From positions 2,086,028 through 2,150,027 of the forward strand of contig CBDBMD010000003.1 in NCBI GenBank assembly GCA_965207415.1: a stretch of 64,000 nt of DNA, read 5' to 3'. The position numbers were made by a program, and so were the translations under genes. Numbering within the stretch: position 1 is the first letter of the stretch; every line of letters begins with the position of its first letter. Below the pieces are notes generated by a model. It ran no database searches. It had not been told where the DNA came from and saw only the letters and a program-made list of their open reading frames with translations. Of this stretch, positions 1,223 through 15,436 are shown in pieces. The DNA is from Dehalococcoidia bacterium (GTDB lineage Bacteria > Chloroflexota > Dehalococcoidia > UBA2979).

Positions 1223-4200
1223 GTGACCGCACGGCTGACGGCCCTGCTGGTGGCACTCGTGCTCGCCCTGCCGGGCGCCGCCACGGTCGACGCCCAAGGC
1301 GCGGGCGGCGAGACGGACGTCATCGAGGTGCGCGTCGCCGCGCGACGGCTGCTCAACGGCAACACGGAGTTCGCGACGCAGCAGCGCCAGGCGGACGGGT
1401 CGTGGGGCGAGCGCCTGCTGCCGCGGGCGCGCTTCTTCCCCGCGAGCACGAGGGTCGGACGCTGGCTTGCGAGCTCGCCGCTCACGGTGCGTCCCTCGGG
1501 CGGAAGCGGTGCGGCGGAGATCCGCGTTGCCGCGCGGCTGCTCGCCGATGGCCGCATGGAGTTCGCGGCGCAGCAGCGCCAGGCGGACGGGTCGTGGGGC
1601 GAGCGCCTGCTGCCGCGGGCGCGCTTCTTCCCCGCGAGCACGAGGGTCGGACGCTGGCTTGCGAGCACGCCGCTGACGGTGACGCTGCGGCTCCCGGGCT
1701 CGGTCGCCTCAGACCGCGCCGCCCTCGTGGCGTTCTATGAGGCGACGAACGGTTCGAACTGGGAGAGCAGCAGCAACTGGCTGAGCGACAGGCCGCTCGG
1801 CGAGTGGCACGGCGTCACCACCGATGACAGTGGGCGCGTGACGGAACTGAGACTACTCAATAGCAGGCTGGCTGGCTCGCTCCCGGCCGAGCTTGGAGGG
1901 CTCTCAAGCCTGGAGGTGCTGTGGATCTCCGACAGTCCCAGGGGCAGGCAGCTTGGCGGCCCCATCCCGGTTGAGTTGGGTCGGCTCACGAACCTCCGCG
2001 CGCTGATCATCAGCAACATCAGCTTGAGCGGGCCCATCCCGGCTGAGATTGGGCGCCTCACTAATCTGCGCACACTCGATCTTGGACATAACCAGTTGAG
2101 CGGGCCCATCCCGATTGCCGTTGGAAACCTCAGCAGTCTGGGCACGCTTGGCCTCGAGCAGAACAAATTGAGCGGGCCGCTCCCGGTTGAGCTCGGACGC
2201 CTCTCAGAGTTGCGTCAGCTTGAAGTGGGGTGGAACCAGTTGAGCGGTCCAATCCCGATCGAGCTGGGAACTCTCTCCAACCTGGAATGGCTCGACCTCG
2301 GCGGAACCAACCAGTTAAGCGGGCGAATCCCGGCTGAGTTCGGCAGCCTCACGAACCTGAAACACCTGGACCTCTCAGGGAACCGACTGACCGGGCCGAT
2401 CCTGGCAGAGTTGGCGAATCTCACCAATCTGCGTGAGCTGAACCTCTGGGGAAACCAGCTGACGGGCCCGATCCCGACTGAGTTCGGCAGCCTCACGAAC
2501 CTAGAGCGGCTGTACCTCGGGAGGAACCGCCTGACCGGGCCGATCTTGGCAGGGTTAGGGAATCTCACCAATCTGCGTGAGCTGAACCTGTCGTGGAACC
2601 AGCTGACGGGGCCGATCGCGCCTGAGTTAGGGGCCCTCAGGGGCCTGGAGTCGCTCTACCTCTCAGGGAACGCGCTGAGTGGATCGATCCCGCCTGAGTT
2701 GGGGGCCCTCAGGGGCCTGCGCTCGCTCAGCCTCACAGCGAACGCGCTGAGCGGACCGATCCCGCCTGAGTTGGGGGCCCTCAGGGGCTTGGAGTCGCTC
2801 TACCTCTCAGAGAACGTGCTGAGCGGGCCGATCCCGGCCGAGCTGGGCAGCCTCGGGAACTTGCGTAGGTTAGGCCTCGATGGCAACGAGCTTGGCGGGC
2901 CGATCCCGGCTGAATTGGGCAACCTCATCAAGTTGGACGGTTTGAACTTGCAGATGAACCGGTTGGGTGGGCCGATCCCGGCTGAGCTGGGCAACCTCAC
3001 GGCCGTTGCGACGTTGGAGCTCTCTGACAACGACTTGAGCGGCTCGATCCCGTCCGCGCTCGGCAGTCTCATCTCCCTCGAACGACTGACCCTCGGGGGC
3101 AACGAGTTGAGCGGGTGCGTACCCAACGCACTGGAGGACGTGCCGGAGAACGACCTCACCGATCTCGGCCTGCCCTTCTGCTCACCCGTGACGGTCACGC
3201 AGCCGGCGAAGGGGTCGGTGGCATCGGACCGGGCCGCCCTTGTCGCGCTCTACGAAGCGACAGGCGGGCCGGGCTGGACGAACAGTGCGAAGTGGTTGAG
3301 CCATGCGCCGATTGGCACGTGGTTCGGCGTCACCACGAACGAAGACGGCCGTGTGACGGCGCTGGCCCTCGACGACAACCGGCTGGCCGGTCCGATACCG
3401 CCCGAATTGGGCAGCCTCACTCAACTGAGGACGCTCGGTCTCTCAAGCAACGAGCTGAGCGGACCGATACCGGCTGCGTTGGGTCGACTCGCGAACCTGC
3501 TGTTACTCGATCTCTCAATCAACGAGCTGAGCGGACCGCTCCCGGTTGAGTTAGGCGACCTCACCAACCTGAGTACGCTTCATCTCCGGGACAACCAACT
3601 GAGCGGGCCGATCCCAGCCGAACTGGGACGTCTCTCCAATCTGCAATGGTTCAACCTCGGAGGAGGCAACCAGTTGAACGGGCTAATCCCGGTTCAGTTG
3701 GGCAACCTCACCAAGCTGGGATGGCTGAACCTCGCGGAGAATGAGCTGAGCGGGCCAATTCCCCTTGAGCTGGGCAACCTGACCAACCTGGTCGAGCTGA
3801 GGCTCTCGGGGAACCAGCTCAGCGGAACAATCCCGGTTCAGCTGGGCGGACTTGCCTTCCTGCAGGAGCTGTGGCTCGGTGGCAACAAGTTGAGCGGGGC
3901 GATCCCGGCTGAGCTGGGCGGCCTCACCAACCTCTGGTCGCTGCATCTCGGTGGCAACAAGTTGAGCTGGCCGATCCCGGCTGAGCTGGGCAACCTCACC
4001 CGCCTGCGAAACCTGCATCTCTTCCACAACCAGTTGAGCGGGCCGATCCCTACGGAGCTGGGCGACCTTGCCAATCTTTGGACGCTAGATCTCGCAGACA
4101 ATGCGCTGAGCGGGCCGATCCCGACCGAGTTGGGCCGACTCACCAACCTGCGGACGTTGCTGATCCAGCACAACGAGCTCAGTGGGCCGATCCCGCCGGA

Positions 4201-4402
4201 GTTGGGCAGCCTGCAAAAGCTGGGTCGGCTCGAACTCCATCACAATGAGCTGAGCGGCCCGATCCCGGTCGAGCTGGGGAGGCTTACGGATCTGATCATT
4301 CTGTACCTCAGAGACAACTTGCTTACCGGGTGCATCCCCGAGGAGCTGCGAGACATCTGGCGGAACGACCTCGGCGAGCTCGGCCTCTCCTTCTGCAACT
4401 AG
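1223..4402 (+). CDS. Secreted plant-type leucine-rich-repeat protein (1059 aa) with two LRRNT+LRR ectodomain-like arrays
   Basis: GTG start with signal peptide MTARLTALLVALVLALPGAATVDA. Two 64-aa N-terminal modules, with nt 1378..1476 identical to 1570..1668. Two copies of an LRRNT-like cap (GSVASDRAALVAxYEATxG..W..W.GVT.D..GRVT.L.L), each followed by about 17-20 24-residue repeats LxxLxxLxLxxNxLSGPIPxELGx. Each array ends with a Cys cap (LSGCVP...DLGLPFC and LTGCIP...LGLSFCN). Confidence 0.8.
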   Translation: MTARLTALLVALVLALPGAATVDAQGAGGETDVIEVRVAARRLLNGNTEFATQQRQADGSWGERLLPRARFFPASTRVGRWLASSPLTVRPSGGSGAAEIRVAARLLADGRMEFAAQQRQADGSWGERLLPRARFFPASTRVGRWLASTPLTVTLRLPGSVASDRAALVAFYEATNGSNWESSSNWLSDRPLGEWHGVTTDDSGRVTELRLLNSRLAGSLPAELGGLSSLEVLWISDSPRGRQLGGPIPVELGRLTNLRALIISNISLSGPIPAEIGRLTNLRTLDLGHNQLSGPIPIAVGNLSSLGTLGLEQNKLSGPLPVELGRLSELRQLEVGWNQLSGPIPIELGTLSNLEWLDLGGTNQLSGRIPAEFGSLTNLKHLDLSGNRLTGPILAELANLTNLRELNLWGNQLTGPIPTEFGSLTNLERLYLGRNRLTGPILAGLGNLTNLRELNLSWNQLTGPIAPELGALRGLESLYLSGNALSGSIPPELGALRGLRSLSLTANALSGPIPPELGALRGLESLYLSENVLSGPIPAELGSLGNLRRLGLDGNELGGPIPAELGNLIKLDGLNLQMNRLGGPIPAELGNLTAVATLELSDNDLSGSIPSALGSLISLERLTLGGNELSGCVPNALEDVPENDLTDLGLPFCSPVTVTQPAKGSVASDRAALVALYEATGGPGWTNSAKWLSHAPIGTWFGVTTNEDGRVTALALDDNRLAGPIPPELGSLTQLRTLGLSSNELSGPIPAALGRLANLLLLDLSINELSGPLPVELGDLTNLSTLHLRDNQLSGPIPAELGRLSNLQWFNLGGGNQLNGLIPVQLGNLTKLGWLNLAENELSGPIPLELGNLTNLVELRLSGNQLSGTIPVQLGGLAFLQELWLGGNKLSGAIPAELGGLTNLWSLHLGGNKLSWPIPAELGNLTRLRNLHLFHNQLSGPIPTELGDLANLWTLDLADNALSGPIPTELGRLTNLRTLLIQHNELSGPIPPELGSLQKLGRLELHHNELSGPIPVELGRLTDLIILYLRDNLLTGCIPEELRDIWRNDLGELGLSFCN
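1378..1668 (+). repeat. Intragenic tandem duplication (192-bp period, 99 bp perfectly identical) inside the secreted LRR gene
   Basis: 1378..1476 and 1570..1668 are identical and encode QQRQADGSWGERLLPRARFFPASTRVGRWLAS twice. Confidence 0.85.
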
Positions 4403-4411
4403 CCGTCCCGA

Positions 4412-5653
4412 CTACCCCCGAGGCAGGCCGAGGCCGCGGGTGGCGATGATGTTGCGCTGCACCTCGGAGGTGCCGCCGCGGATCGTCGCGGGGACGGCGC
4501 GCAGGTAGTTGTACGGCGGCGCGCCGCCCTGCGCGGCGTATGCGCTCTCCGGCCCGTCCTCCGTGCCCTGACCCCAGAGTTGCCCGTACAACCCGAACGT
4601 CTTGATGCTCGTCGCCGAGAGCCGCTGCAGCAGCTCCGAGTTGAACAGCTTCGAGGTCGAGGCCTCGTAGTTCGGCACCATTCCCGCCGCCTGGATCGAG
4701 ATCACGCGCGCCGAGAACTGGAACATCACGTCCGTCTCGATGTAGCGGTCGGCGACCTCGGTGCGCAGCGTCCCGCCGCGCCCGAGCAGCGACTTCGCCG
4801 CGCCCTCCTCGCTCGCGCAGTAGGCGAGCAGCTTCTCGATGCCACGCTGCATCGAGACGGCTCCCTCGATGTTGGAGCGCTCGAAGTCGAGCAGGTTCAT
4901 CGCGACGTACCAGCCGCGGTTCTCCTCGCCGACGATGTTGGAGACGGGCGTACGCACCTCCTCGTAGAAGGTCTCGTTGAAGTAGTGCACGTCGCTCATG
5001 TCGACCAGCGGCTGGACGCCGATACCCGGCGTCTTGCCGTCGACGAGCAGGAAGGAGATGCCGCGGTGCTTCGGCGCGGTCGGGTCGGTGCGGGTGAGCA
5101 GGAAGAACCAGTCGGCGGTGTGCGCCGCCGAGGTCCAGATCTTCTGCCCGTTGATCACGTAGTCGTCGCCGTCGCGGCGCGCGCTGGTGGAGAGCGAGGC
5201 GAGGTCCGAGCCGGCCCCCGGCTCCGAAAAGCCCTGCGCCCACGTCACCTCGCCGGAGAGGATGCGCGGCAGGTGCTCGCGCCGCTGCTCCTCGGTGCCG
5301 TTGATGATCAGCGTCGGCCCGAGCATGTTGGTGCCGGAGCCGCCGACCGCCGGGGCGCCGGAGCTCGCCAGCTCCTGCTTGAGGATGAACTGCTCCATCG
5401 AGCTGAGCCCGCCGCCGCCGTACTCTTCCGGCCAGTGCGGCGCGACCCAGTTGTGCTCGGCGAGGGCGTCCGACCAGGCGACGGCGGCCTCGCGGCGATC
5501 GGGGTCCTCGGACTTGCGGTCGAACTCCCAGGTGCGCTCGAGGCGATGCGCGTTGACGCCGCCGCTGCGGTAGCGCGCCGGGAGGCGCTCGGCGATCAGG
5601 CTGCGGACCTTCTCGCGAAAGTCCTGCTGCTCCTCGTTGTCGCTCCAGTCCAT
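4412..5653 (-). CDS. Acyl-CoA dehydrogenase
   Basis: The track ORF 4412..5848 is trimmed to the internal ATG (MDWSDNEEQQDF...) preceded by GGAGG. ACAD family motifs are present (GGGGLS..., WAQGFSEPGAGSDLAS, WTSAAHTADWFFLLTRTD, C-terminal GGTSEVQRNIIA). It lies 9 bp from the convergent LRR gene stop. Confidence 0.85.
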   Translation of the reverse strand: MDWSDNEEQQDFREKVRSLIAERLPARYRSGGVNAHRLERTWEFDRKSEDPDRREAAVAWSDALAEHNWVAPHWPEEYGGGGLSSMEQFILKQELASSGAPAVGGSGTNMLGPTLIINGTEEQRREHLPRILSGEVTWAQGFSEPGAGSDLASLSTSARRDGDDYVINGQKIWTSAAHTADWFFLLTRTDPTAPKHRGISFLLVDGKTPGIGVQPLVDMSDVHYFNETFYEEVRTPVSNIVGEENRGWYVAMNLLDFERSNIEGAVSMQRGIEKLLAYCASEEGAAKSLLGRGGTLRTEVADRYIETDVMFQFSARVISIQAAGMVPNYEASTSKLFNSELLQRLSATSIKTFGLYGQLWGQGTEDGPESAYAAQGGAPPYNYLRAVPATIRGGTSEVQRNIIATRGLGLPRG

Positions 5654-5693: not shown

Positions 5694-6971
5694 CTATGCG
5701 ATGACGTCCGCCTCGCGCAGCGAGGCGAGTTCGTCGGCGCTGAAGCCGTGCTCCAGCAGCACCTCGTCGGTGTCGGCGGCGTAGGCCGGAGCCGGGCCGT
5801 GCACGGCCGTCGGCGTCTCCGACATCTGCACCACCGGCCCGGCGACACGCTGCGGCCCGGTGATCGGGTGCTCGAGGTCCCACATCAGGCCGAGCGCCCG
5901 CACCTGCTCGTCCTCCGGCAGATCCTCGGGAAAGCGCACCGGCGAGGCGGGGACGCCGCCCTCCTCGAAGCGCTCCATCCACTCCGCCACCGTGTGCTCG
6001 CGCATCAGGCGCTCGATCTGCGACTTCCACGCCTCGAAGCGCGGCTCGTTCTCCGGGTCCGTCGAGTCGTAGTCCGGGCTGTCGCCGTCGTCGTCGACGC
6101 CGAGCACGGCGCGGGCGGCGGCGCGCAGCGGTGGCGTGAGGCAGCCGAGGGCGATCGCGCCGTCCTTCGCCTGGTAGGAGCGGTAGTAGAGGCGCGGCGG
6201 GCCGGCCTCGGTGATGCGATGGCGGTCGCGGATCGCCATCTGGTCGCGGTAGGGCTTGCCGGCGGCGCGCGCCTCCTCGATCTCGGCGAGCATCGGGTCG
6301 CGCGTCACGGAGTCGCTGACCGGCTCGTCCATTACGTGGTAGTCGAGCAGCGAGAGCGCGGTGCGCAGCATCGAGGCCTGGATCAGCTGCCCCTTGCCCG
6401 TGCGTTCGCGGTGGTAGAGCGCGCTCGCGATCGCCATCGCCGAGGTGAGCCCCGTCGCGTAGTCGACGATCGGCGGGCGCGTGTACTGCGGGGTGCCCTC
6501 GTGGTCGACGCGGCCGATTACGGACATCAGGCCGCTGTAGGCGGTCATCGCGCCGTCGGTGGCCGGATCGAAGGCGCGAGGGCCCTCGCTGCCGTAGGCG
6601 CTGATCTCGCAGTAGATGAGGCCGGGGTGGAGCGCGGCGAGCTGCTCGTAGCCGACGCCGAGGCGTTCCGGGACGCCGGGCCGCATGTTGTGCATCAGTA
6701 CGTCGAAGCGCGGGACCAGGCGGTGCAGCACGGCCTGGCCGCGCGCGCTCTTGAGGTCGATCGCCACGGCGCGCTTGCCGCGGTTGAGGGACTGGAAGCG
6801 CTTGCCCTCCCGGGGGACGACAGCGCCGACGTTGCGGTAGTGCTCGCCCTCGCGCGGCTCGACCTTGACGACGTCGGCGCCGAGGTCGGAGAGATTGACG
6901 CCGCAGTAGGGACCCGCGGCGATCTGCGAGAACTCGAGCACGCGCACGCCATCGAGCGCACCGGGCGCCAT
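5694..6971 (-). CDS. CoA-transferase family III (CaiB/BaiF-type)
   Basis: Start reassigned to ATG (MAPGALDGVRVLEFSQIAAGPYCGVNLSDLGADVVKVEP...) with a GGAGGAG RBS. This is the typical family-III N-terminus. The upstream part of the track ORF is a frame extension. Confidence 0.85.
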   Translation of the reverse strand: MAPGALDGVRVLEFSQIAAGPYCGVNLSDLGADVVKVEPREGEHYRNVGAVVPREGKRFQSLNRGKRAVAIDLKSARGQAVLHRLVPRFDVLMHNMRPGVPERLGVGYEQLAALHPGLIYCEISAYGSEGPRAFDPATDGAMTAYSGLMSVIGRVDHEGTPQYTRPPIVDYATGLTSAMAIASALYHRERTGKGQLIQASMLRTALSLLDYHVMDEPVSDSVTRDPMLAEIEEARAAGKPYRDQMAIRDRHRITEAGPPRLYYRSYQAKDGAIALGCLTPPLRAAARAVLGVDDDGDSPDYDSTDPENEPRFEAWKSQIERLMREHTVAEWMERFEEGGVPASPVRFPEDLPEDEQVRALGLMWDLEHPITGPQRVAGPVVQMSETPTAVHGPAPAYAADTDEVLLEHGFSADELASLREADVIA

Positions 6972-7146
6972 CGTCGCTCCTCCGCTGCCGGTCCACCGGG
7001 TCCGGGGTCGTGTCGCCTCACTGGTCGCGAGACAGCCTACCGGAGGCGCGCCGCGCGAGGTAGGCGTGGAGCTACCGGAGGACGGCAAGGATCGCCCTGC
7101 TGGAGCAACGAACGAAGTAGCCCCGCGCCGAGGCTCGTCCGTCGAC

Positions 7147-9429
7147 TCAGTTGCAGAACGGCAGCCCAAGCGCGGCAAGGTCATTGTTCGGCCTGCCCCG
7201 CAACTCGACAGGTATGCAGCCGCTCAGCTCATTGCCCCTGAGAAGCAGCACTTGCAGGTTGCGAAGGGCGCCCAGTTCGGGCGGGATCGGCCCGCTCAAC
7301 TGGTTGTCGCGGAGATACAGCTCTCGCAGGTTGCTGAGGCCGCCTAACTCGGGCGGGATCGGCCCGCTCAACTGGTTGTCGCGGAGATCCAGGTCTAGCA
7401 GGTTGCTGAGGCCACCCAGCTCAGCCGGGATCGGCCCGCTCAACTCGTTGCCCCCGAGATCTAGGTCTTGCAGGTTGCTGAGGCCACCCAGCTCGGCCGG
7501 AATCGGCCCGCTCAACTGGTTGCCCCCGAGATCCAGGTCTTGCAGGTTGCTGAGTGCGCCCAACTTGGCCGGGATCGGCCCGCTCAACTCGTTGCCCCCG
7601 AGATCCAGGTCTTGCAGGTTGCTGAGGCCACCCAGCTCAGCCGGAATCGGCCCGCTCAGTTGGTTCTCGCCAAGATTCAGCAGGTCGAGGGTGGCGAGGC
7701 CGCCCAGCTCCGCCGGGATCGGCCCGCTCAGTTGGTTCTCGCCAAGATTCAGCAGGTCGAGGGTGGTGAGGCCGCCCAGCTCCGCCGGGATCGGCCCGCT
7801 CAGTTGGTTCTCGCCAAGATTCAGCAGGTCGAGGGTGGCGAGGCCGCCCAGCTCCGCCGGGATCGGCCCGCTCAGTTGGTTCTCGCCAAGATTCAGCAGG
7901 TCGAGGGTGGTGAGGCCGCCCAACTCGGCCGGAATCGGCCCGCTCAACTGGTTGGTCTCGAGCCGCAGCGTCACCAGCTTGGCAAGGTCGCCGAGCTCGG
8001 CCGGAATCGGCCCGCTCAACTGGTTGGTCTCGAGCCGCAGCGTCACCAGCTTGGCAAGGTTGCCGAGCTCGGGCGGGATCGGCCCGCTCAGCTGGTTGTT
8101 GTAGAGCTCCAACTCTGTCAGGTGGGGAAGGCCGCCGAGTTCAGGCGGGATCGGCCCACTCAACTGGTTGTTGTAGAGCTCCAACTCTGTCAGGTGGGGA
8201 AGGCCGCCGAGTTCAGGCGGGATCGGCCCACTCAACTGGTTGTCTTCGAGCCACAGGGCCACCAGATTGGCGAGGCCGCCCAGCTCGGCCGGGATCGGCC
8301 CGCTCAACTGGTTGCTCGCGAGATGCAGCTGTTCCAGATTGCCGAGGTCTCCCAGCTCGGCCGGGATCGGCCCACTCAACTGGTTCTTGTTGAGATACAG
8401 CAGTTCAAGGCGGATGAGGCCGCCCAGCTCACCCGGAATCCGTCCGCTCAACTGGTTGCTGTTGAGATCCAGTATTTCCAGATCGCTGAGGCCGCCCAGC
8501 TCGGCCGGGATCGGCCCACTCAGCTGGTTGTGGGAGAGGTCCAGCCATTCCAACTGGATGAGTCTAATCAACTCAGCAGGGATCGGCCCGCTCAGCTGGT
8601 TGTGGGAGAAGTCCAGCCATTCCAACTGGATGAGTCTAGTCAACTCAGCAGGGATCGGCCCGCTCAACTCGTTGAAGTGGAGAGCCAGCCATCGCAGGTT
8701 CGTGAGGCCGCCGAGTTCAGCCGGAATCGGTCCGCGCAAATGGTTCCCGATCAGAATCAGCTCTATGACCCGACCGCCGTCAGCGGTGACACCGTGCCAC
8801 TCGCCGATCGGTCGGTCGGTCAGCCAGTTCGTGGTGTTCGCCCAGTCCGGTCCACCCGTCGCCTCGTAGAGCGCGACAAGGGCGGCTCGGTCCGAGGCGA
8901 CCGAGCCCGGTGCAGGTGTCACGTCTGGGGTCGACGTCGACGTTGGTGTGGCCGTCGGCGTGGGCGTAGCTATCGAAGTCGGGGACGGCGTCGGGGTGGC
9001 CGTCGGAGTCGGAGTAGGCGCGGCTGTGGCTGTCGCCGGCGGCGCCTGCGCGAGCTGCTGCTCGCTGCCATCGAGGTCAGCGAGGACGATGAGCACGACC
9101 GCCACCGCGGCCACCGCCGCCGTGCCGGCCGCCGCCACGCCCGCCCACACGAGCACGCGCCCGAGGGGTTCGAGCGCCCCGGGCAGCGCGAGCAGCCCGA
9201 ACAGCCGCCGCCGCGGCTCGGGACGCCAGGCGGCGAGCTGCCCGCGGTTCTCGAGTCCCAGCTTCCCGAGCATGTTCGAGATGTGGAACTTGACCGCGTC
9301 GAGGGTGACGCCGAGCCGCACCGCGATCTCGGCGTTCGTGCCGCCTCGGCGCAGCTCTTCGAGCACGCGCAGCTCGGCCGGGGTGAGGATGCCGGGATGT
9401 GGCGGGCGGCCCCGCCCTCGCTGCGTCAT
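7147..9429 (-). CDS. Membrane-anchored one-component regulator: N-terminal LuxR-type HTH, single TM helix, extracellular plant-type LRR domain (about 22 repeats)
   Basis: N-terminus LTPAELRVLEELRRGGTNAEIAVRLGVTLDAVKFHISNMLGKLGLENRGQLAAW matches the LuxR/FixJ HTH. The hydrophobic span VLVWAGVAAAGTAAVAAVAVVLIVLA follows, then a Thr/Pro linker. An LRRNT-like cap (GSVASDRAALVALYEATGGPDWANTTNWLTDRPIGEWHGVT) and LxxLxLxxNQLSGPIPxELGxL repeats come next. The C-terminal cap is LSGCIPVELRG..NDLAALGLPFCN. Confidence 0.8.
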   Translation of the reverse strand: MTQRGRGRPPHPGILTPAELRVLEELRRGGTNAEIAVRLGVTLDAVKFHISNMLGKLGLENRGQLAAWRPEPRRRLFGLLALPGALEPLGRVLVWAGVAAAGTAAVAAVAVVLIVLADLDGSEQQLAQAPPATATAAPTPTPTATPTPSPTSIATPTPTATPTSTSTPDVTPAPGSVASDRAALVALYEATGGPDWANTTNWLTDRPIGEWHGVTADGGRVIELILIGNHLRGPIPAELGGLTNLRWLALHFNELSGPIPAELTRLIQLEWLDFSHNQLSGPIPAELIRLIQLEWLDLSHNQLSGPIPAELGGLSDLEILDLNSNQLSGRIPGELGGLIRLELLYLNKNQLSGPIPAELGDLGNLEQLHLASNQLSGPIPAELGGLANLVALWLEDNQLSGPIPPELGGLPHLTELELYNNQLSGPIPPELGGLPHLTELELYNNQLSGPIPPELGNLAKLVTLRLETNQLSGPIPAELGDLAKLVTLRLETNQLSGPIPAELGGLTTLDLLNLGENQLSGPIPAELGGLATLDLLNLGENQLSGPIPAELGGLTTLDLLNLGENQLSGPIPAELGGLATLDLLNLGENQLSGPIPAELGGLSNLQDLDLGGNELSGPIPAKLGALSNLQDLDLGGNQLSGPIPAELGGLSNLQDLDLGGNELSGPIPAELGGLSNLLDLDLRDNQLSGPIPPELGGLSNLRELYLRDNQLSGPIPPELGALRNLQVLLLRGNELSGCIPVELRGRPNNDLAALGLPFCN
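7400..8700 (-). repeat. Near-identical 72/144-bp tandem repeats inside the LRR array (recent repeat expansion)
   Basis: Several consecutive LRR units are nearly identical at nucleotide level (for example ETNQLSGPIPAELGDLAKLVTLRL x2, GENQLSGPIPAELGGL(T/A)TLDLLNL x4, GGN(E/Q)LSGPIPA(E/K)LG(G/A)LSNLQDLDL x3). Confidence 0.75.
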
Positions 9430-9574
9430 GCATCGAGTCTAGGAGCCGCTACCGCCGAATTTCACTACCCGACGACCTTTCGGCTCTTGCCCCACCACCG
9501 CCCCCGGCCCCAACCCGAGCCGGTGGTAGCATGGAGCGCGCGCCGCGAGGGCGCGCGAGACGGCTGGGGGCGAG

Positions 9575-11059
9575 ATGCACGACGTGGTGGTCGTCGGCGC
9601 TGGAAACGCGGCGCTCTGCGCCGCGCTGGCGGCGCAGGAGGCGGGCGCGAGCGTGCTCGTCCTCGAGAAAGCCAGCGAGGACGAGCGCGGCGGCAATACC
9701 TTCTTCACCGGCGGCGGCTTCCGCTTCCCCTACAACGGCATCGACGACATCGTCACGCTCATCCCGGACCTCACCGAGAGCGAGCTCGACCGCATCGAGG
9801 TCGGCGAGTACACCGAGGCCGCGATGCGCGAGGACCTGATGCGCGTCAGCGAGGGTCTCGCCGACGAGCAACTGACCGACCACCTGGTGCGCAACTCCTT
9901 CGACACCATGCAGTGGATGCGCGAACGCCTCGACGTGCGCTGGGTGCTGATGTACGGCCGCCAGGCCTACGAGGTGGAGGGCAAGCTGCGCTTCTGGGGC
10001 GGCCTGATCGTCGAGGCCGTCGGCGCCGGCAAGGGCCTCTCCGACTCGCTCTTCGCCGCCGCCGACCACCACGGCGTCGACGTGCGCTACGGCACGAAGG
10101 CCGTCGGCCTCGTGATGGACGACGCCGGCAACGTGCACGGCGTGCAGGCACGCGGCCCCAACGGCCTCGAGACCATCGACGCGCGCGCCGTGGTGATGGC
10201 AGCAGGTGGCTTCGAGGCGAACACGGAGATGCGCACCCGCTACATGGGCCCCGGCTGGGAACTGGCGAAGGTGCGCGGCACCCGTCACAACACCGGCGAG
10301 GGCATCCGCATGGCTCTCGACGTCGGAGCGCAGTCGCACGGCCACTGGTCCTCGGGGCACGCGGTCGCCTGGGATCTGAACGCGCCGCCGACGGGCAACC
10401 GCATCGTCGGCGACCTCTACCAGAAGCACTCCTACCCGCTGGGCCTGATCGTCAACATCGAGGGCGAGCGCTTCGTCGACGAGGGCGCGGACATGCGCAA
10501 CTACACCTACGCCAAGTACGGGCGCGAGATCCTGCGCCAGCCCTACGGCGTCGCCTTCCAGCTCTTCGACCAGAAGACCGTGCCGATCCTGCGCGACGAG
10601 TACCGCATCCGCGAGATCACGAAGGGCGAGGGTCAGACCATCGGCGAGCTGGCCGACGACCTCGGCATCGATCGCGAGGGGCTGGAGCGCACGGTCGCCG
10701 AGTTCAACGCCGCCTGTCAGCCGGGCGAGTTCAACCCGGCCGCCCTCGACGGCGTCAGCACCGAGGGCATCGAGCCGCCGAAGTCGAACTGGGCGATCCC
10801 GCTCGACGAGCCGCCCTACTTCGGCGTCGCCGTGACCTGCGGCATCACGTTCACCTTCGGCGGCCTGCGCATCGACCACCGCAGCGCGCAGGTGCTCGAC
10901 ACGGAGCTCGAGGCGATTCCCGGGCTCTACGCCGCCGGCGAGCTGGTCGGCGGGCTCTTCTACCACAACTACGCCGGCGGGACGGGGCTGATGTCCGGCG
11001 CGGTCTTCGGCCGCACGGCCGGGCGCGCCGCCGCCGAGGCGGTTCTCGGCGAGGGGTAG
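9575..11059 (+). CDS. FAD-dependent oxidoreductase, TcuA/fumarate-reductase-flavoprotein-like
   Basis: N-terminal dinucleotide-binding motif VVVVGAGNAALCAALAAQEAG and a C-terminal flavoprotein motif (GLYAAGELVGGLFYHNYAGGTGL). It is divergent from the LuxR-LRR gene. Confidence 0.75.
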   Translation: MHDVVVVGAGNAALCAALAAQEAGASVLVLEKASEDERGGNTFFTGGGFRFPYNGIDDIVTLIPDLTESELDRIEVGEYTEAAMREDLMRVSEGLADEQLTDHLVRNSFDTMQWMRERLDVRWVLMYGRQAYEVEGKLRFWGGLIVEAVGAGKGLSDSLFAAADHHGVDVRYGTKAVGLVMDDAGNVHGVQARGPNGLETIDARAVVMAAGGFEANTEMRTRYMGPGWELAKVRGTRHNTGEGIRMALDVGAQSHGHWSSGHAVAWDLNAPPTGNRIVGDLYQKHSYPLGLIVNIEGERFVDEGADMRNYTYAKYGREILRQPYGVAFQLFDQKTVPILRDEYRIREITKGEGQTIGELADDLGIDREGLERTVAEFNAACQPGEFNPAALDGVSTEGIEPPKSNWAIPLDEPPYFGVAVTCGITFTFGGLRIDHRSAQVLDTELEAIPGLYAAGELVGGLFYHNYAGGTGLMSGAVFGRTAGRAAAEAVLGEG

Positions 11060-11291: not shown

Positions 11292-12308
11292 ATGCCCAAT
11301 GCCCCACGGCTCGGCGCGTTCGCGGCGCTCGCTCTGGCGGCGGCGCTCGCGACCTTCCCCGGCTGCTCCGGCGACGACGAGAGCGAGGCGCCAGCGACGC
11401 CCACCGCAACCGGCACCGCGACCCCGACCGCCTCACCTGTCGTGACGCCCTCGCCCTCGCCGACGCCAACGCTCGAGCCCGCAACCGCGACCCCGGTGGC
11501 GACCGCCGGGGCGGACCCGCCGTCCGGCGACGGCGAAGGCCTGCTGCCGCCGGAGCAACAGGCGCAGGTGGTGCGCCTGCTGCTCGACGCGATGAGCGAT
11601 CCAGATTCCGAGCTGTTCTCGGGCTCGATCGACGCGCTGCCGCCGGCGCTGCGGGCGCTGTTCGACGCACTCGGCGCCGACCTGCTGCTGGGCGTGATCA
11701 TCGCCGAGCTGGGAGGCTCGGGAACGGTCGTCGCCGTCCTCCCCGGCTCGCCCGCCGAGCGCGCGGGCCTTGTCGAGGGCGACCAGATCACCGCAGTCGA
11801 CGACACGCCCGTCGCGAGCGACGCGGAGCTGCGCGCCGCCATCGAGGCCGTCGCCGAGGGCGCGGCCTATGTGCTGACGGTCAGGCGCGGCGGTGCGCCC
11901 GGGCTGGTGGACCTCGAGCGCGAGGCGGCGTCCGAAGGCGACGCCTGGCGCGCGGAGCTGCTGCGCGCCGTGGCGCTCGCGCTGGTGCTGCAGGGCGCTC
12001 CGGGCGGCCCGGAAGTGCCGCCGTCGCTGCTCGGCGAGCTGGTCGAGGAGACGCCAGACGGGCTGCGCGTCTTCGCGGTCTTCCCCGGCTCACCCGCGGA
12101 CGCGGGCGGCATCCTCCCCGGCGACCAGCTGCTCTCGATCGATGGCCGCGCCCTCAGGACCATCGCCGACCTCGAGGAGTTGATGCGCTCGGGCGCGCCC
12201 CCGATCGGGCCGACCGAGGTCGTTGTGCTCCGCGACGGGGAGGAGCTGACGCTGGAGATCGACCTCGCCGCCGGCGGCATGCTCGGCGGCGGCGCGGCGA
12301 CACAGTAG
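11292..12308 (+). CDS. Lipoprotein with two PDZ domains
   Basis: Lipobox LATFPGCSG and a Pro/Thr/Ala linker. Two PDZ-like segments (GTVVAVLPGSPAERAGLVEGDQITAVDDTPV and GLRVFAVFPGSPADAGGILPGDQLLSIDGRAL). Confidence 0.7.
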   Translation: MPNAPRLGAFAALALAAALATFPGCSGDDESEAPATPTATGTATPTASPVVTPSPSPTPTLEPATATPVATAGADPPSGDGEGLLPPEQQAQVVRLLLDAMSDPDSELFSGSIDALPPALRALFDALGADLLLGVIIAELGGSGTVVAVLPGSPAERAGLVEGDQITAVDDTPVASDAELRAAIEAVAEGAAYVLTVRRGGAPGLVDLEREAASEGDAWRAELLRAVALALVLQGAPGGPEVPPSLLGELVEETPDGLRVFAVFPGSPADAGGILPGDQLLSIDGRALRTIADLEELMRSGAPPIGPTEVVVLRDGEELTLEIDLAAGGMLGGGAATQ

Positions 12309-12341: not shown

Positions 12342-13499
12342 TCAGGCGAGGGTTTCGTTCACGATCGAGAGGCCCTGCCGGAGCTGGGCGCGCCAGTCTT
12401 GCCGGGGATGGCGGATCGCGTTCGTGCAGACGCGGAAGAGGCACACGCCCTCGCGCAGGGCGAGATCGCGTTCGCTCCACTCGAATCGATCGAGCGCAGC
12501 CTGCCGGAAGTCCGCGTGGTACGCACCGGCCGCCGGTGCGTCACGCCTGCGCCCGAAGTGCGAGGCCCAGCGCAGGTGCCCGAGGAAGTTGCCCACGTCG
12601 AGCAGTGGATCGCCCGGTCCCGCCTCCTCGAAATCGACCAGCGCAATCCGGCCGTCGGGCAGGACCAGCATCTGGTCGTCGTAGAAGTCGTTGTGCGCGA
12701 TGCCCGACGGCTCCCATGACTCGACGAACGGATCGAGCACCCCCATGGCCGCCTTGAGCTCGCGCAGCGCCGCGTCGTCGGTGGCGGCCTTGTGCCGGAA
12801 GCTCCGCTTCGCCCGGCGGTACGCGCCGGCGAGGTTGAACGGGCGCCCGCCCTCGGACTCGCGGGGCGCAGCCCAGAGGCTCTCAAGCGCGTCGAGGAGC
12901 ACGCCGGGGTCCGGGCCCCTTCCCGCCCGAATGCGCTGTCGCAGGTTCCTGCCCGGAATCTCCGACATCCACAGCACGGCGCCGTCCCGCCAGTGCCCGG
13001 CCAGCCTCGGTACGACGAACCTCGAGCGCCCGGCGAGGTTCCTGGCCGCGAGCAGCGGCTCTACTGCGTCGGGGCGCATCGCTCGCGCGTAGAAGCGCGC
13101 CTTGCCCACGCGGTGGCGCAGCACGGCGCGGCTCGCCGGGCGGTAGCGAACCAGCTCCACGCGCACGCGCCGCGCCGGGATCGCCAGCACGTGCTGGTTG
13201 AGCAGCCGCAGCGCACCGTCGGGGTGAGCGGCCTCGGCCAGGCCGGGCAGGGTGCGGTCCTCGGGGTACTGGAACAGCTCGGCCGGCTGGCCGCGCTCGA
13301 TCCTGATCGTGAAGACCTGCGAGGGCAGGTAGTCGTCCTCGTGCCACTGCGCCTCGTAGCTGACCTGGGCGGTTCGGCCGGGGCTGTGGCTCAGTTCGCG
13401 CACGCGAATCCGCTGAGGACTGACCTCCTGCCTGCCGTTCCGCTGCTCGTAGGCGCCCCAGATCCACTCGGGGTCGTAGAGCCCGGGCAGCTCCGGCAA
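12342..13499 (-). CDS. Phosphotransferase (APH/choline-kinase-like) family protein; start codon uncertain
   Basis: The C-terminal half carries kinase-like catalytic motifs (GIAHNDFYDDQMLVLPDGRIALVDFEEAGPGDPLLDVGNFLGHL). There is no ATG upstream of the domain; a TTG near 13499 is a candidate. The T/R-rich 5-prime part of the track ORF 12342..14609 is an off-frame read of the repeat gene. Confidence 0.55.
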   Translation of the reverse strand: MPELPGLYDPEWIWGAYEQRNGRQEVSPQRIRVRELSHSPGRTAQVSYEAQWHEDDYLPSQVFTIRIERGQPAELFQYPEDRTLPGLAEAAHPDGALRLLNQHVLAIPARRVRVELVRYRPASRAVLRHRVGKARFYARAMRPDAVEPLLAARNLAGRSRFVVPRLAGHWRDGAVLWMSEIPGRNLRQRIRAGRGPDPGVLLDALESLWAAPRESEGGRPFNLAGAYRRAKRSFRHKAATDDAALRELKAAMGVLDPFVESWEPSGIAHNDFYDDQMLVLPDGRIALVDFEEAGPGDPLLDVGNFLGHLRWASHFGRRRDAPAAGAYHADFRQAALDRFEWSERDLALREGVCLFRVCTNAIRHPRQDWRAQLRQGLSIVNETLA

Positions 13500-13572
13500 C
13501 GCGGGGTCGTTGGGGAACTCGACCGGCGGGTAGAGCGGAGCGACCGCTGGCGAGGCGGCCGACGCCCCCCGC

Positions 13573-15189: not shown

Positions 15190-15436
15190 CGGAACGACCT
15201 CCCGCAGGACCGGTTCGCCGGGCCGTAGCGCCGACTGGGCTCTGATGGCCCGCCTCCGGAAGTTGGTCGGAGCACAATAGCACCGGGAACATAACAAATC
15301 TATTGGATACGGCAGATCTCGCCATCACGTTCTCGTGACAGAGGTGATTGCATGCCCCACCGCAGGGGCTCCCGGAGCAGCGCGTTGTTCGCGCCCCAAT
15401 CGGAGGGGAGCCTGCGACAGCCGGAGGCAAAGAAGG

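What the first reader, a model, noticed from the sequence alone, without database searches (positions are those of the whole stretch)
7147..9429. Transmembrane one-component regulator: LuxR-type HTH fused through a single TM helix to an extracellular plant-type LRR ectodomain
The N-terminal 60 aa are a clean LuxR/FixJ HTH. One 26-residue hydrophobic helix and a Thr/Pro stalk follow. Next comes an ectodomain built like a plant receptor-kinase extracellular domain: an LRRNT_2-like cap, about 22 24-residue LxxLxLxxNxLSGxIPxxLGxL repeats, and a C-terminal Cys cap. The kinase output of the plant receptors is replaced here by a DNA-binding domain. This predicts a ToxR/CadC-style direct signal-to-DNA receptor that uses an LRR sensor. 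I do not know of a characterised example. The gene is divergent from a TcuA-like flavoprotein and upstream of a CoA-transferase/acyl-CoA dehydrogenase pair, which are plausible regulatory targets.
Basis: partly seen in the sequence, partly recalled or inferred. Interest (0 to 1): 0.85.

Follow-up and report, generated by a model that had tools for sequence, protein, structure and literature searches.

The report
Membrane-tethered LuxR regulator with LRR ectodomain
This is a real gene for a single-pass membrane protein that joins a DNA-binding domain inside the cell to a plant-receptor-like leucine-rich-repeat domain outside, and it belongs to a large, apparently undescribed family in (mostly sponge-associated) Dehalococcoidia whose outer domains are swapped like cassettes.

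Summary
Window 7147..9429 (-) is one intact 760-aa ORF. It has a NarL/LuxR-type HTH (GerE, 44 bits), one 26-residue TM helix, a Thr/Pro stalk, an N-cap, exactly 22 in-register 24-residue plant-type LRRs, and a two-Cys C-cap.

The gene is not a one-off. Its promoter, HTH, TM and stalk form a conserved module found in at least 1,250 protein clusters and 317 loci in species-representative genomes. The C-terminal domains fused to this module differ: RCC1 propellers, LRRs (about 4-11%), fn3, PD40, and many with no known family.

At the same syntenic locus in related genomes the module is 87-94% identical, but the ectodomain is replaced entirely. DNA homology breaks inside the stalk and resumes about 60 bp after the stop codon.

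Every family gene carries a family-specific 15-nt box, a -10-like hexamer and a leaderless start. Lipoprotein-anchored versions of the same ectodomains share that box.

The most likely function is a ToxR-like surface-to-DNA sensor, possibly acting on its own promoter box. Signalling itself is inferred, not shown.

The parts
9457..9471 (-). Family-specific promoter box CGGGTAGTGAAATTC
   Evidence: The PWM score is 24 bits and this is the only such site in the 64-kb window. The same box lies upstream of almost all family genes in 78 loci. In 2.16 Mb scanned, 93 sites pass threshold. Of these, 69 are at the primary family genes and about 17 at further tandem copies.
9436..9441 (-). -10-like hexamer TAGACT, 15 nt after the box and 6 nt before the ATG (leaderless start)
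   Evidence: TAnnnT lies 14-15 nt after the box in 60 of 75 family promoters, where about 0.3% is expected by chance. The start codon usually follows 6 nt later. There is no Shine-Dalgarno sequence, whereas the CoA-transferase gene has GGAGGAG.
9391..9429 (-). N-terminal basic arm MTQRGRGRPPHPG (residues 1-13)
   Evidence: G7, R8 and P9 are invariant in 79 of 79 family members. The arm is disordered in the models. A role in minor-groove contact is my inference.
9229..9390 (-). NarL/LuxR (GerE)-type four-helix HTH, residues 14-67
   Evidence: Pfam GerE scores 44.4 bits. The MSA-based AF2 model has pLDDT 83-98 here. It superposes on the NarL C-terminal domain in its DNA complex (1JE8) at 0.9 A over 57 residues. 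Sequence matches include LiaR, NarL, VraR, DosR and GerE.
9157..9228 (-). Conserved juxtamembrane segment, residues 68-91 (W-RP..RRRL..LLA.P.AL..LGR)
   Evidence: It is conserved across the family; W68 is invariant. Its function is unknown.
9079..9156 (-). Single transmembrane helix, residues 92-117
   Evidence: Kyte-Doolittle reaches 2.66. In 184 family members there is one TM helix (median 26 aa) at a fixed position. The N-flank averages 1.56 K+R against 0.66 on the C-flank, and the C-flank averages 2.69 D+E.
8920..9078 (-). Acidic exit and Thr/Pro/Ala stalk, residues 118-170; contains the 5' recombination breakpoint
   Evidence: DNA homology to all orthologous loci ends between window 8927 and 9023. 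GC3 falls from 0.92 to 0.76 here.
8773..8919 (-). LRR N-cap, residues 171-219 (GSVASDRAALVALYEATGG..W..NWL..P.GEWHGVT)
   Evidence: It is 71-73% identical to the two caps of gene 1223..4402. It also occurs in L006, L009, P0109 and P0108. Pfam LRRNT_2 does not match it.
7189..8772 (-). 22 plant-specific-type LRRs of 24 residues, residues 220-747
   Evidence: The repeats are in register. TRF reports a 72-bp period with 20.8 copies. AF2 gives a solenoid with pLDDT above 90, and the top 50 PDB matches are all plant LRR-RK ectodomains. Positions 1, 3, 4, 6, 8, 9 and 24 are hypervariable. Repeats 13-15 are 99-100% identical at the DNA level.
7147..7188 (-). C-terminal cap tail (NNDLAALGLPFCN) and stop codon; it pairs with Cys735 in the last repeat
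   Evidence: The motif GC[IV]P..L......NDL..LGL.FC recurs in all three LRR modules of the window and in homologues.
7086..8930 (-). Exchangeable ectodomain cassette (region with no DNA homology to the orthologous loci)
   Evidence: blastn shows the flanks at 84-95% identity and the cassette unrelated or only locally similar. Ectodomains at the same locus in L001-L006, L009, L079 and L080 are different folds or have different LRR numbers.
7037..7066 (-). Conserved GC-rich hairpin element CGCCTACCTCGCGCGGCGCGCCTCCGGTAG at the 3' edge of the unit
   Evidence: It follows the last family gene in all orthologous loci and lies between tandem copies (L002:6877, L004:912). There are 13 occurrences with at most 2 mismatches, all in the gene's orientation. 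The predicted fold is -19.5 kcal/mol.
1223..4402 (+). Related secreted protein with two LRR modules of the same type (same caps), anchored by a signal peptide instead of HTH-TM
   Evidence: It shows that the LRR module comes from a local pool of surface-protein modules.

Best explanation
**Shown**
- The gene encodes a type-II (N-in/C-out) single-pass membrane protein of a monoderm Dehalococcoidia bacterium.
- Its parts are a cytoplasmic NarL/LuxR-type HTH with an invariant N-terminal G-R-P arm, one TM helix, a Thr/Pro stalk, and a surface-exposed plant-type LRR solenoid of 22 repeats whose concave-face residues are hypervariable.
- It belongs to a large lineage-specific family. In that family a near-constant unit (15-nt box, -10 hexamer, leaderless ATG, HTH, TM, stalk) is joined to interchangeable ectodomains. 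The unit duplicates in tandem, and its ectodomain is replaced between close relatives by recombination in the stalk and just past the stop codon.

**Inferred**
- It works as a membrane-tethered one-component transducer of the ToxR/CadC logic.
- Ligand binding on the LRR surface (a host, particle or macromolecular ligand) changes the oligomeric state or availability of the HTH.
- The HTH then acts on promoters carrying the family box, at minimum its own. That would couple what the cell surface touches to expression of this surface-protein gene set.
For: - Architecture and fold.
- Topology: a single TM helix at a fixed position in 184 members. Positive charge lies on the N-side and acidic residues on the C-side. 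165 of 184 ectodomains have an even Cys count, which fits disulfides outside the cell.
- The HTH is under strong constraint. It is 87-94% identical between species whose flanking metabolic genes are 91-98% identical, and 17 columns are invariant in 79 members, including recognition-helix H49 and K56 (K47 at least 90%).
- Family size and modularity: 317 genomic loci and 1,250 clusters. GerE is present in 79 of 79 and 96 of 96 members scanned, with more than 10 ectodomain types.
- Cassette replacement at a syntenic locus with sharp breakpoints, a GC3 discontinuity and a 3' hairpin.
- A dedicated promoter box that is almost exclusive to family genes. It is also retained upstream of three lipoprotein genes carrying the same ectodomain type, so it is read in trans.
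- Recognition-helix residue 48 tracks box position 5: Thr with G in 28 of 28, Phe with A in 13 of 13, with about 6-7 inferred changes of each.
- The LRR variability pattern is typical of a binding surface.
Against: - No experiment or expression data exist for any member. DNA binding, ligand binding and signalling are all inferred.
- The box is not palindromic, whereas characterised NarL/LuxR-type domains usually bind as dimers to inverted repeats.
- The box could instead be read by a dedicated sigma factor or a soluble regulator.
- Helix-box covariation is confounded because the promoter and coding sequence are co-inherited.
- The same ectodomains also occur on lipoprotein or signal-peptide anchors. 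The ectodomain therefore does not need an HTH to function, and the HTH-TM module could be mainly an anchor.
- Topology was judged from hydropathy and charge, not from a dedicated predictor.
- Three consecutive near-identical 72-bp repeats mean the exact repeat number depends on assembly quality.
Confidence: 0.5

Rival explanations
1. The protein is a membrane-tethered transcription factor released by regulated proteolysis. Ligand binding or ectodomain shedding triggers intramembrane cleavage, and the freed 90-residue HTH then acts as a soluble regulator. This is the logic of anti-sigma RIP cascades rather than of ToxR.
For: - The TM helix is rich in Ala and Gly.
- A conserved juxtamembrane segment with Pro and Gly precedes it.
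- A soluble HTH would more easily reach many box promoters scattered around the chromosome (one search shows 6-7 or more copies per genome).
- A two-PDZ lipoprotein gene lies two genes away at this locus.
Against: - No site-1 or site-2 protease or other partner recurs next to family genes across paralogous loci.
- The PDZ protein has no protease domain and is conserved only in the syntenic set.
- Nothing in the sequence identifies a cleavage site.
Confidence: 0.22
2. The protein is primarily a surface adhesin or host-interaction protein (a 'eukaryotic-like' LRR protein of a sponge symbiont). The HTH-TM module serves mainly as a membrane anchor, and the HTH has at most a housekeeping feedback role that does not depend on ligand.
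For: - The same ectodomain types occur with lipoprotein or signal-peptide anchors.
- LRR and other repeat proteins are a noted feature of sponge symbionts (PMC6306507).
- Several source MAGs come from sponges.
- Ectodomain turnover and repeat expansion resemble variable surface proteins.
Against: - A plain anchor would not need a 70-residue HTH with invariant recognition-helix residues kept at 87-94% identity.
- It would also not need an invariant GRP arm.
- The dedicated box and its tracking of the recognition helix point to a DNA-related function.
Confidence: 0.18
3. This is the first reader's version: a local regulator whose targets are the divergent TcuA-like flavoprotein gene and the downstream CoA-transferase/acyl-CoA dehydrogenase pair.
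For: - The box lies in the 146-bp intergenic region shared with tcuA.
- The PDZ-TcuA-[gene]-CoAT-ACAD order is conserved in 9 related loci.
Against: - The synteny reflects orthology, not function. About 70 paralogous loci have other neighbours, and no neighbour family recurs.
- In L001, L002 and L005 a further family copy (a frameshifted pseudogene in L005) lies between TcuA and the downstream family gene that adjoins the CoA-transferase.
- The CoA-transferase has its own RBS and is separated from the gene by a conserved hairpin.
- An LRR surface is an odd sensor for small-acid catabolism.
Confidence: 0.08
4. The ORF is an artefact: an assembly chimera joining a small LuxR gene to an LRR gene, or a pseudogene.
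For: - Many database homologues are short, frameshifted or truncated calls.
- The repeats are hard to assemble, and three units are 99-100% identical.
Against: - The ORF is uninterrupted.
- Full-length HTH-TM-ectodomain genes are the rule in 78 genomic loci, including complete chromosomes.
- Independent metagenomes carry HTH-TM-LRR alleles at the same locus.
- The breakpoints fall in the stalk, exactly as in all other alleles.
Confidence: 0.02

Closest known systems
ToxR / CadC / TcpP-type membrane-integrated one-component regulators
   Same: The order of parts is the same: an N-terminal cytoplasmic DNA-binding domain, a single TM helix, and a C-terminal extracytoplasmic sensor domain. The presumed logic of sensing outside and binding DNA from the membrane is also the same.
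   Different: - Those proteins use an OmpR-type winged helix, whereas this one has a NarL/LuxR four-helix HTH with an N-terminal GRP arm.
- Their periplasmic domains are small and specific. Here the ectodomain is a 590-residue LRR solenoid and is exchangeable.
- This family has tens of paralogues per genome and a shared dedicated promoter.
RsgI anti-sigma-I factors of cellulolytic clostridia
   Same: Both are multi-paralogue sets of single-pass proteins with a constant cytoplasmic N-terminal module, variable extracellular binding modules, and conserved promoters.
   Different: The RsgI N-domain binds a sigma factor rather than DNA. No RsgI_N domain or adjacent sigma gene is present here.
Plant LRR receptor kinase / receptor-like protein ectodomains (FLS2, RGFR1, MIK2, HAESA, TDR, BRI1)
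   Same: The 24-residue plant-specific repeat LxxLxLxxNxLSGxIPxxLGxL is shared. All top 50 PDB matches are of this class, with 28-42% identity and TM-score up to 0.88. Variability is concentrated on the concave face.
   Different: There is no kinase, no LRRNT_2 cap with a Cys pair and no island domain. The C-cap is bacterial (GCIP...NDL..LGLPFC). The output is an HTH on the N-terminal side, so membrane polarity is opposite (type II against type I).
NarL/FixJ-family response-regulator output domains and GerE
   Same: The fold and the recognition-helix motif (VK.H..ML.KL) are shared.
   Different: The domain is N-terminal rather than C-terminal. There is no receiver domain or ligand-binding domain. 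It is tethered to the membrane through its last helix. The associated DNA box is non-palindromic.
Bacterial plant-type LRR proteins (Xanthomonas XopAC/XopAE/XopL; secreted LRR surface proteins in metagenomes)
   Same: The repeat class is the same (NCBIfam partial hits, all below cutoff). The closest ectodomain relatives are large bacterial LRR surface proteins at up to 56% identity.
   Different: Those are secreted or injected proteins without an HTH or TM anchor. None of the top 120 LRR relatives carries GerE.

Membership tests
LuxR/GerE (NarL/FixJ-type) HTH, Pfam PF00196 | Profile match above the curated gathering score | tested here: met
   44.4 bits against a 23.5-bit cutoff, residues 14-67. 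All 79 and all 96 relatives scanned also match.
LuxR/GerE (NarL/FixJ-type) HTH, Pfam PF00196 | Four-helix fold superposable on solved members | tested here: met
   The AF2 model with an MSA has pLDDT 83-98. It matches NarL-CTD/DNA 1JE8 at rmsd 0.9 A over 57 residues, and also LiaR, VraR, DosR and GerE.
LuxR/GerE (NarL/FixJ-type) HTH, Pfam PF00196 | Sequence-specific DNA binding | not testable with these tools
   Only indirect evidence exists: a conserved recognition helix, a family-specific box, and helix-box covariation.
ToxR/CadC-like membrane-integrated one-component regulators | N-terminal cytoplasmic DNA-binding domain, single TM helix, C-terminal extracytoplasmic domain | tested here: met
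   Based on hydropathy, the positive-inside rule over 184 members, and even Cys counts in ectodomains. No dedicated topology predictor was available.
ToxR/CadC-like membrane-integrated one-component regulators | OmpR/PhoB-type winged-helix DNA-binding domain (Trans_reg_C) | tested here: not met
   Pfam finds GerE and no Trans_reg_C. The protein works like this family but is not a member of it.
ToxR/CadC-like membrane-integrated one-component regulators | Signal-dependent promoter control while membrane-bound | not testable with these tools
   This needs reporter, ChIP or localisation experiments.
Plant-specific (PS) class LRR / LRR-RK ectodomain | 24-residue repeat with consensus LxxLxLxxNxLSGxIPxxLGxL | tested here: met
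   22 in-register repeats; positions 10, 12, 14, 16, 17 and 20 are invariant.
Plant-specific (PS) class LRR / LRR-RK ectodomain | Solenoid fold matching solved plant ectodomains | tested here: met
   The Foldseek top 50 are all plant LRR-RKs, with E down to 4e-38.
Plant-specific (PS) class LRR / LRR-RK ectodomain | LRRNT_2 N-terminal cap (PF08263) | tested here: not met
   No hit even at E <= 10 on the isolated cap.
Plant-specific (PS) class LRR / LRR-RK ectodomain | Cytoplasmic kinase output, type-I orientation | tested here: not met
   There is no kinase domain, and the orientation is type II with an N-terminal HTH.
RsgI-type anti-sigma factors | N-terminal anti-sigma-I domain and an adjacent sigI gene | tested here: not met
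   No such Pfam hit, and no recurrent neighbouring gene family.
Sec-secreted LRR protein (hydrophobic segment as a cleaved signal peptide) | Hydrophobic core within the first ~35 residues, preceded only by a short basic n-region | tested here: not met
   The hydrophobic segment spans residues 92-117 and follows a folded 55-residue HTH. By contrast, gene 1223..4402 has a true N-terminal signal sequence.
Known anti-phage defence proteins (PADLOC) / Rfam RNA elements | Profile or covariance-model match | tested here: not met
   No PADLOC family. No Rfam match in 6900-9700 at E <= 1.

The most novel reading that the evidence does not exclude
The family is a previously unrecognised, cassette-based sensory system of monoderm Chloroflexota. 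Dozens of surface receptors per genome share one promoter, HTH and TM chassis. Each HTH binds the family box as a non-palindromic operator, with the helix in the major groove at GGGTAG and the GRP arm in the AT-rich minor groove, in the manner of Hin. Ectodomains (LRR, RCC1 and others) are exchanged by recombination in the stalk to retune what the cell senses, for example sponge-host or particle surfaces. The 22-LRR allele would then be a bacterial, kinase-free counterpart of plant LRR receptors wired directly to DNA.
Probability: 0.3. Interest if true: 0.88.

Novelty: new variant of a known kind. Interest (0 to 1): 0.72.

Why it matters
If the inference holds, this gene extends membrane-integrated one-component signalling, known mainly from ToxR/CadC in Proteobacteria, in three ways:
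- to a LuxR-type HTH;
- to a plant-receptor-like LRR sensor;
- to an expanded, modular family of more than 1,000 clusters in uncultured Dehalococcoidia, many from sponge microbiomes.

It would give a concrete molecular role to some of the 'eukaryotic-like' repeat proteins long noted in sponge symbionts, as sensors rather than only decoys or adhesins.

It also offers a natural example of domain-swap receptor engineering, with defined recombination junctions and a compact, testable promoter-operator.

The box, the leaderless promoter and a 75-residue HTH form a small system that can be tested in vitro without culturing the organism.

Tried and rejected
- **Pfam LRRNT_2 on the N-cap:** no hit, so I dropped the 'plant cap' claim.
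- **Sigma-70 promoter and intrinsic terminator scans over 6900-9650:** nothing found. The promoter is non-canonical.
- **Rfam over the locus:** nothing, so the box or hairpin is not a known RNA element.
- **PADLOC:** nothing, so this is not a known defence protein.
- **Conserved partner gene (sigma factor, protease, kinase) next to family members in 78 loci:** none found. The top clusters were shadow ORFs or the syntenic CoAT/ACAD/TcuA set. The GC3 filter was crude, so small partners could have been missed.
- **Full-length protein search for other HTH+LRR architectures:** the top 120 hits were all LRR-only proteins. It was uninformative for architecture but showed that the ectodomain has no close relative (at most 56% identity).
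- **Literature:** seven searches found no description of the architecture or the family. The library does not cover most subscription journals.
- **Integron attC or mobile-element explanation for the cassette:** rejected. The 3' hairpin has no attC-like core, and no integrase or transposase is evident at the locus.
- **Inverted-repeat reading of box plus -10 region (GTAGG...CCTAC):** not pursued, because it is probably a coincidence of the -10 consensus.
- **Metagenome-wide pattern scan for the box:** not run. With about 15 specified bases, chance matches would swamp the result.
Full report
**1. The observation**

Window 7147..9429 (minus strand) is one uninterrupted ORF of 760 aa. Its parts are as follows.
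- Pfam GerE matches residues 14-67 at 44.4 bits, above the 23.5-bit cutoff. LRR_1, LRR_8, LRR_4 and LRR_14 all match strongly.
- There is a single strong hydrophobic segment, residues 92-117, with RRR before it and D/E after it.
- A Thr/Pro/Ala stalk follows, then a 49-residue cap.
- Exactly 22 in-register 24-residue repeats span residues 220-747.
- The tail NNDLAALGLPFCN, together with Cys735, forms a two-Cys cap.

A TcuA-type flavoprotein gene is divergent (560 bits against a 369-bit cutoff). A family-III CoA-transferase and an acyl-CoA dehydrogenase lie downstream.

The only descriptive claim that fails is the 'LRRNT_2-like' cap. Pfam LRRNT_2 does not match it even at E <= 10.

**2. Structure**

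A single-sequence AF2 model gives a confident LRR solenoid, with pLDDT above 90 for residues ~300-740. Its 50 best PDB matches are all plant LRR receptor-kinase ectodomains, including GSO1, RGFR1, FLS2, MIK2, ERL1, HAESA, PEPR1, TDR and BRI1. Identity is 28-42% and TM-score reaches 0.88.

An MSA-based model of residues 1-125 gives a four-helix HTH with pLDDT 83-98, followed by a long TM helix. The HTH superposes on the NarL C-terminal domain in its DNA complex (1JE8) at 0.9 A over 57 residues. By sequence it aligns with LiaR, NarL, VraR, DosR and GerE, including the recognition-helix motif VK.H..ML.KL.

**3. It is one member of a large family**

I searched with the N-terminal 125 residues only. 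The result was 105 relatives, all Chloroflexota/Dehalococcoidia, up to 91% identical. Many are short or frameshifted gene calls.

A scan of one genome per species found 317 loci, and I kept the best 78. There are often 6-7 or more per genome. In these assemblies the genes are full length, 300-1,250 aa, with one TM helix at a fixed position.

An exhaustive profile-free search of 1.84 billion cluster representatives gave 1,250 proteins at E <= 1e-10. Nearly all of the best 150 match through their extreme N-terminus.

Pfam scans of two independent samples gave these distributions:

| Domain | 79 genomic members (incl. the window protein) | 96 cluster representatives |
|---|---|---|
| GerE | 79 | 96 |
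| RCC1 | 28 | 14 |
| LRR | 3 | 11 |
| fn3 | 1 | 5 |
| PD40 | 1 | 4 |
| CarboxypepD_reg | 5 | 3 |
| SH3_3 | 1 | 3 |

About half of the genomic members have no known ectodomain family. Cupin, NHL/teneurin-like and Peptidase_MA domains also occur once or twice.

Ectodomain clustering gave 11 unrelated groups among 77 proteins. Other multi-LRR members exist, such as P0173 with about 13 repeats and P0115 with two modules. The window protein is the only one seen with 22.

**4. Topology**

Across 184 members there is one TM helix, median 26 residues, at a median of 79 residues after the LTPAE motif.
- The cytoplasmic flank averages 1.56 K+R. The outer flank averages 0.66 K+R and 2.69 D+E.
- 124 members have more positive charge on the N-side and 13 have less.
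- 165 of 184 ectodomains have an even number of Cys.

The organism is a monoderm Chloroflexota (my own knowledge), so the ectodomain should be directly surface-exposed. The hydrophobic segment cannot be an N-terminal signal peptide, because it begins at residue 92 behind a folded domain.

**5. Cassette behaviour at this locus**

L001-L006, L009 and the metagenome loci L079 and L080 share the gene order PDZ - (Pmp3) - TcuA <-> [family gene] -> CoA-transferase -> ACAD. Flanking proteins are 91-98% identical and the HTH-TM module is 87-94% identical. The ectodomains differ completely:
- Cys-containing repeats of about 70 aa in L001 and L005.
- An unknown globular domain in L002, L003 and L004.
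- A cap, 2 LRRs, a C-cap and another domain in L006 and L009.
- About 6-7 LRRs in P0109 and at least 5 in P0108.
- 22 LRRs in the window.

DNA homology runs from the TcuA side through the promoter, HTH and TM and stops inside the stalk, at window 8927-9023. It resumes at window 7067-7085, about 60-80 bp after the stop codon.

GC3 drops at the same place. It is 0.92 in the HTH-TM, 0.76-0.83 in the stalk, cap and LRRs, and 0.96 in TcuA and ACAD. The other LRR gene in the window is also at 0.83.

A 30-nt GC-rich hairpin (window 7037-7066) marks the 3' edge. It is repeated between tandem copies in L002 and L004. L001 and L002 carry two tandem family genes at this locus. L005 carries a frameshifted copy plus an intact one.

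Within the LRR array, repeats 13-15 are 99-100% identical at the DNA level, and several neighbouring repeats are 90-94% identical. This indicates recent tandem expansion. Variability is confined to repeat positions 1, 3, 4, 6, 8, 9 and 24, on the concave face.

**6. A dedicated promoter**

All near-orthologous copies share TCGGGTAGTGA(A/T)AATC just upstream of the start. Across the paralogous family the pattern is CGGGT[AG][AG][GT]G[AT]AA[ACT][TC][CT], then 14-15 nt, then TAnnnT, then about 6 nt, then ATG or GTG, with no Shine-Dalgarno sequence. This geometry fits a promoter producing a leaderless mRNA.

A PWM scan of 2.16 Mb found 93 sites:
- 69 at the primary family genes.
- About 17 at further tandem family copies.
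- 3 upstream of lipoprotein genes. These have a lipobox, a T/P linker and the same ectodomain type as L003/L004.

The window has exactly one site, at 9457-9471. No sigma-70 consensus promoter is present.

The box is kept on genes without an HTH, so it must be read in trans.

Two observations favour the family HTH.
- G7-R8-P9 are invariant in an N-terminal basic arm, and the box has an AT-rich core in a 70% GC genome. The analogy to Hin and AT-hooks comes from my own knowledge.
- Recognition-helix residue 48 tracks box position 5: Thr with G in 28 of 28 and Phe with A in 13 of 13. Mutual information is 0.61 bit, with about 6-7 inferred changes of each character.

This covariation is confounded by co-inheritance of the promoter and the gene, so I treat it as weak evidence.

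**7.

No gene family recurs next to family members across non-syntenic loci. TcuA, CoAT and ACAD are neighbours only in the orthologous set. The CoA-transferase has its own RBS and true start at 6971, and a hairpin element separates it from the gene. Regulation of these genes is not excluded, since the box shares the 146-bp intergenic region with tcuA. It has no specific support.

**8. Ecology and literature**

The source MAGs include 'jk18x...' bins from Caribbean Ircinia sponges (PMC9531527). They also include 'SB066x_bin' MAGs, a naming series listed among sponge-symbiont Poribacteria bins (PMC7883664). A few are from non-sponge Chloroflexota, for example Ca. Amarobacter.

LRR and other 'eukaryotic-like' repeat proteins are a recognised feature of sponge-associated Chloroflexi (PMC6306507). 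I found no paper describing a LuxR-HTH/TM/LRR architecture or this family. Database names are automatic only, such as 'helix-turn-helix transcriptional regulator' or 'CsgD family'.

The closest ectodomain relatives are bacterial LRR surface proteins at up to 56% identity, plus some plant LRR-RKs. None of the top 120 has GerE. No PADLOC or Rfam match was found.

**9. Verdict**

The feature is real and correctly described. It is a type-II membrane protein that joins a NarL/LuxR HTH to a surface plant-type LRR solenoid.

The most likely mechanism is ToxR-like surface-to-DNA transduction acting on the family box. Proteolytic release and a role as a mere anchor are the main rivals.

It works like ToxR/CadC but is not a member of that family, because its DNA-binding fold is different. 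It resembles plant LRR receptors in the ectodomain only.

I rate it a new variant of a known kind. Its family-level features (chassis plus cassette organisation, dedicated leaderless promoter) appear to be undescribed.

Noticed in passing
window 1223-4402 (+): A 1,059-aa secreted protein. It has a signal peptide, two ~55-aa repeats with no Pfam family, and two separate plant-type LRR modules. Each module has the same N-cap and Cys C-cap as the finding. P0173 carries the same N-terminal repeat type behind an HTH-TM anchor, so modules are shared between secreted and HTH-anchored proteins.
   Followed up: partly
L013:1741, L048:10361, L076:1903: Lipoprotein genes (lipobox LVAATVAGC, a T/P linker, and an L003/L004-type ectodomain) driven by the same family promoter box and leaderless geometry, but without an HTH. 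They are candidate members of a common surface-protein regulon.
   Followed up: partly
window 13573-15297 (-): A 574-aa predicted secreted protein made of highly acidic Asp/Thr/Pro repeats (DTPTPTDNDGTDSDGI and related units). It has no Pfam match, and the region has an extreme AT skew of about -0.5.
   Followed up: partly
window 12342-13640 (-): An APH-type phosphotransferase domain (PF01636, E 1.2e-10). The mechanical ORF extends upstream through an alternative frame of the acidic-repeat region, so the true start is unclear.
   Followed up: no
window 11292-12308 (+) and L079/L080: A lipoprotein with two PDZ domains and no protease domain, together with a small Pmp3-family gene seen in L079 and L080. 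Both are conserved beside TcuA in all orthologous loci. Any relation to the family gene is unknown.
   Followed up: no
L005:5080-5712; P0002, P0003, P0005: Frameshifted copies of the HTH-TM module. One is a pseudogene copy within the tandem array of L005. Several are frameshifted or truncated gene calls in public assemblies. This is why the first protein search returned only short proteins.
   Followed up: yes
P0156 (2,854 aa), P0182 (7,703 aa), P0200 (3,371 aa): Giant database 'proteins' with 9-15 separate matches to the HTH. They may be merged tandem arrays or true multi-HTH proteins.
   Followed up: no
P0067-P0099: More distant soluble relatives of about 210 aa in which the same N-terminal HTH is fused to a VOC/glyoxalase domain (PF00903) instead of a TM helix and ectodomain.
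   Followed up: no
window 2000-4500 and 7100-9000: Both LRR-coding regions have lower GC (0.63-0.66) and lower GC3 (0.83) than the surrounding genes (GC about 0.70-0.72, GC3 about 0.96). This suggests the LRR modules have a separate evolutionary history or different mutational dynamics.
   Followed up: partly
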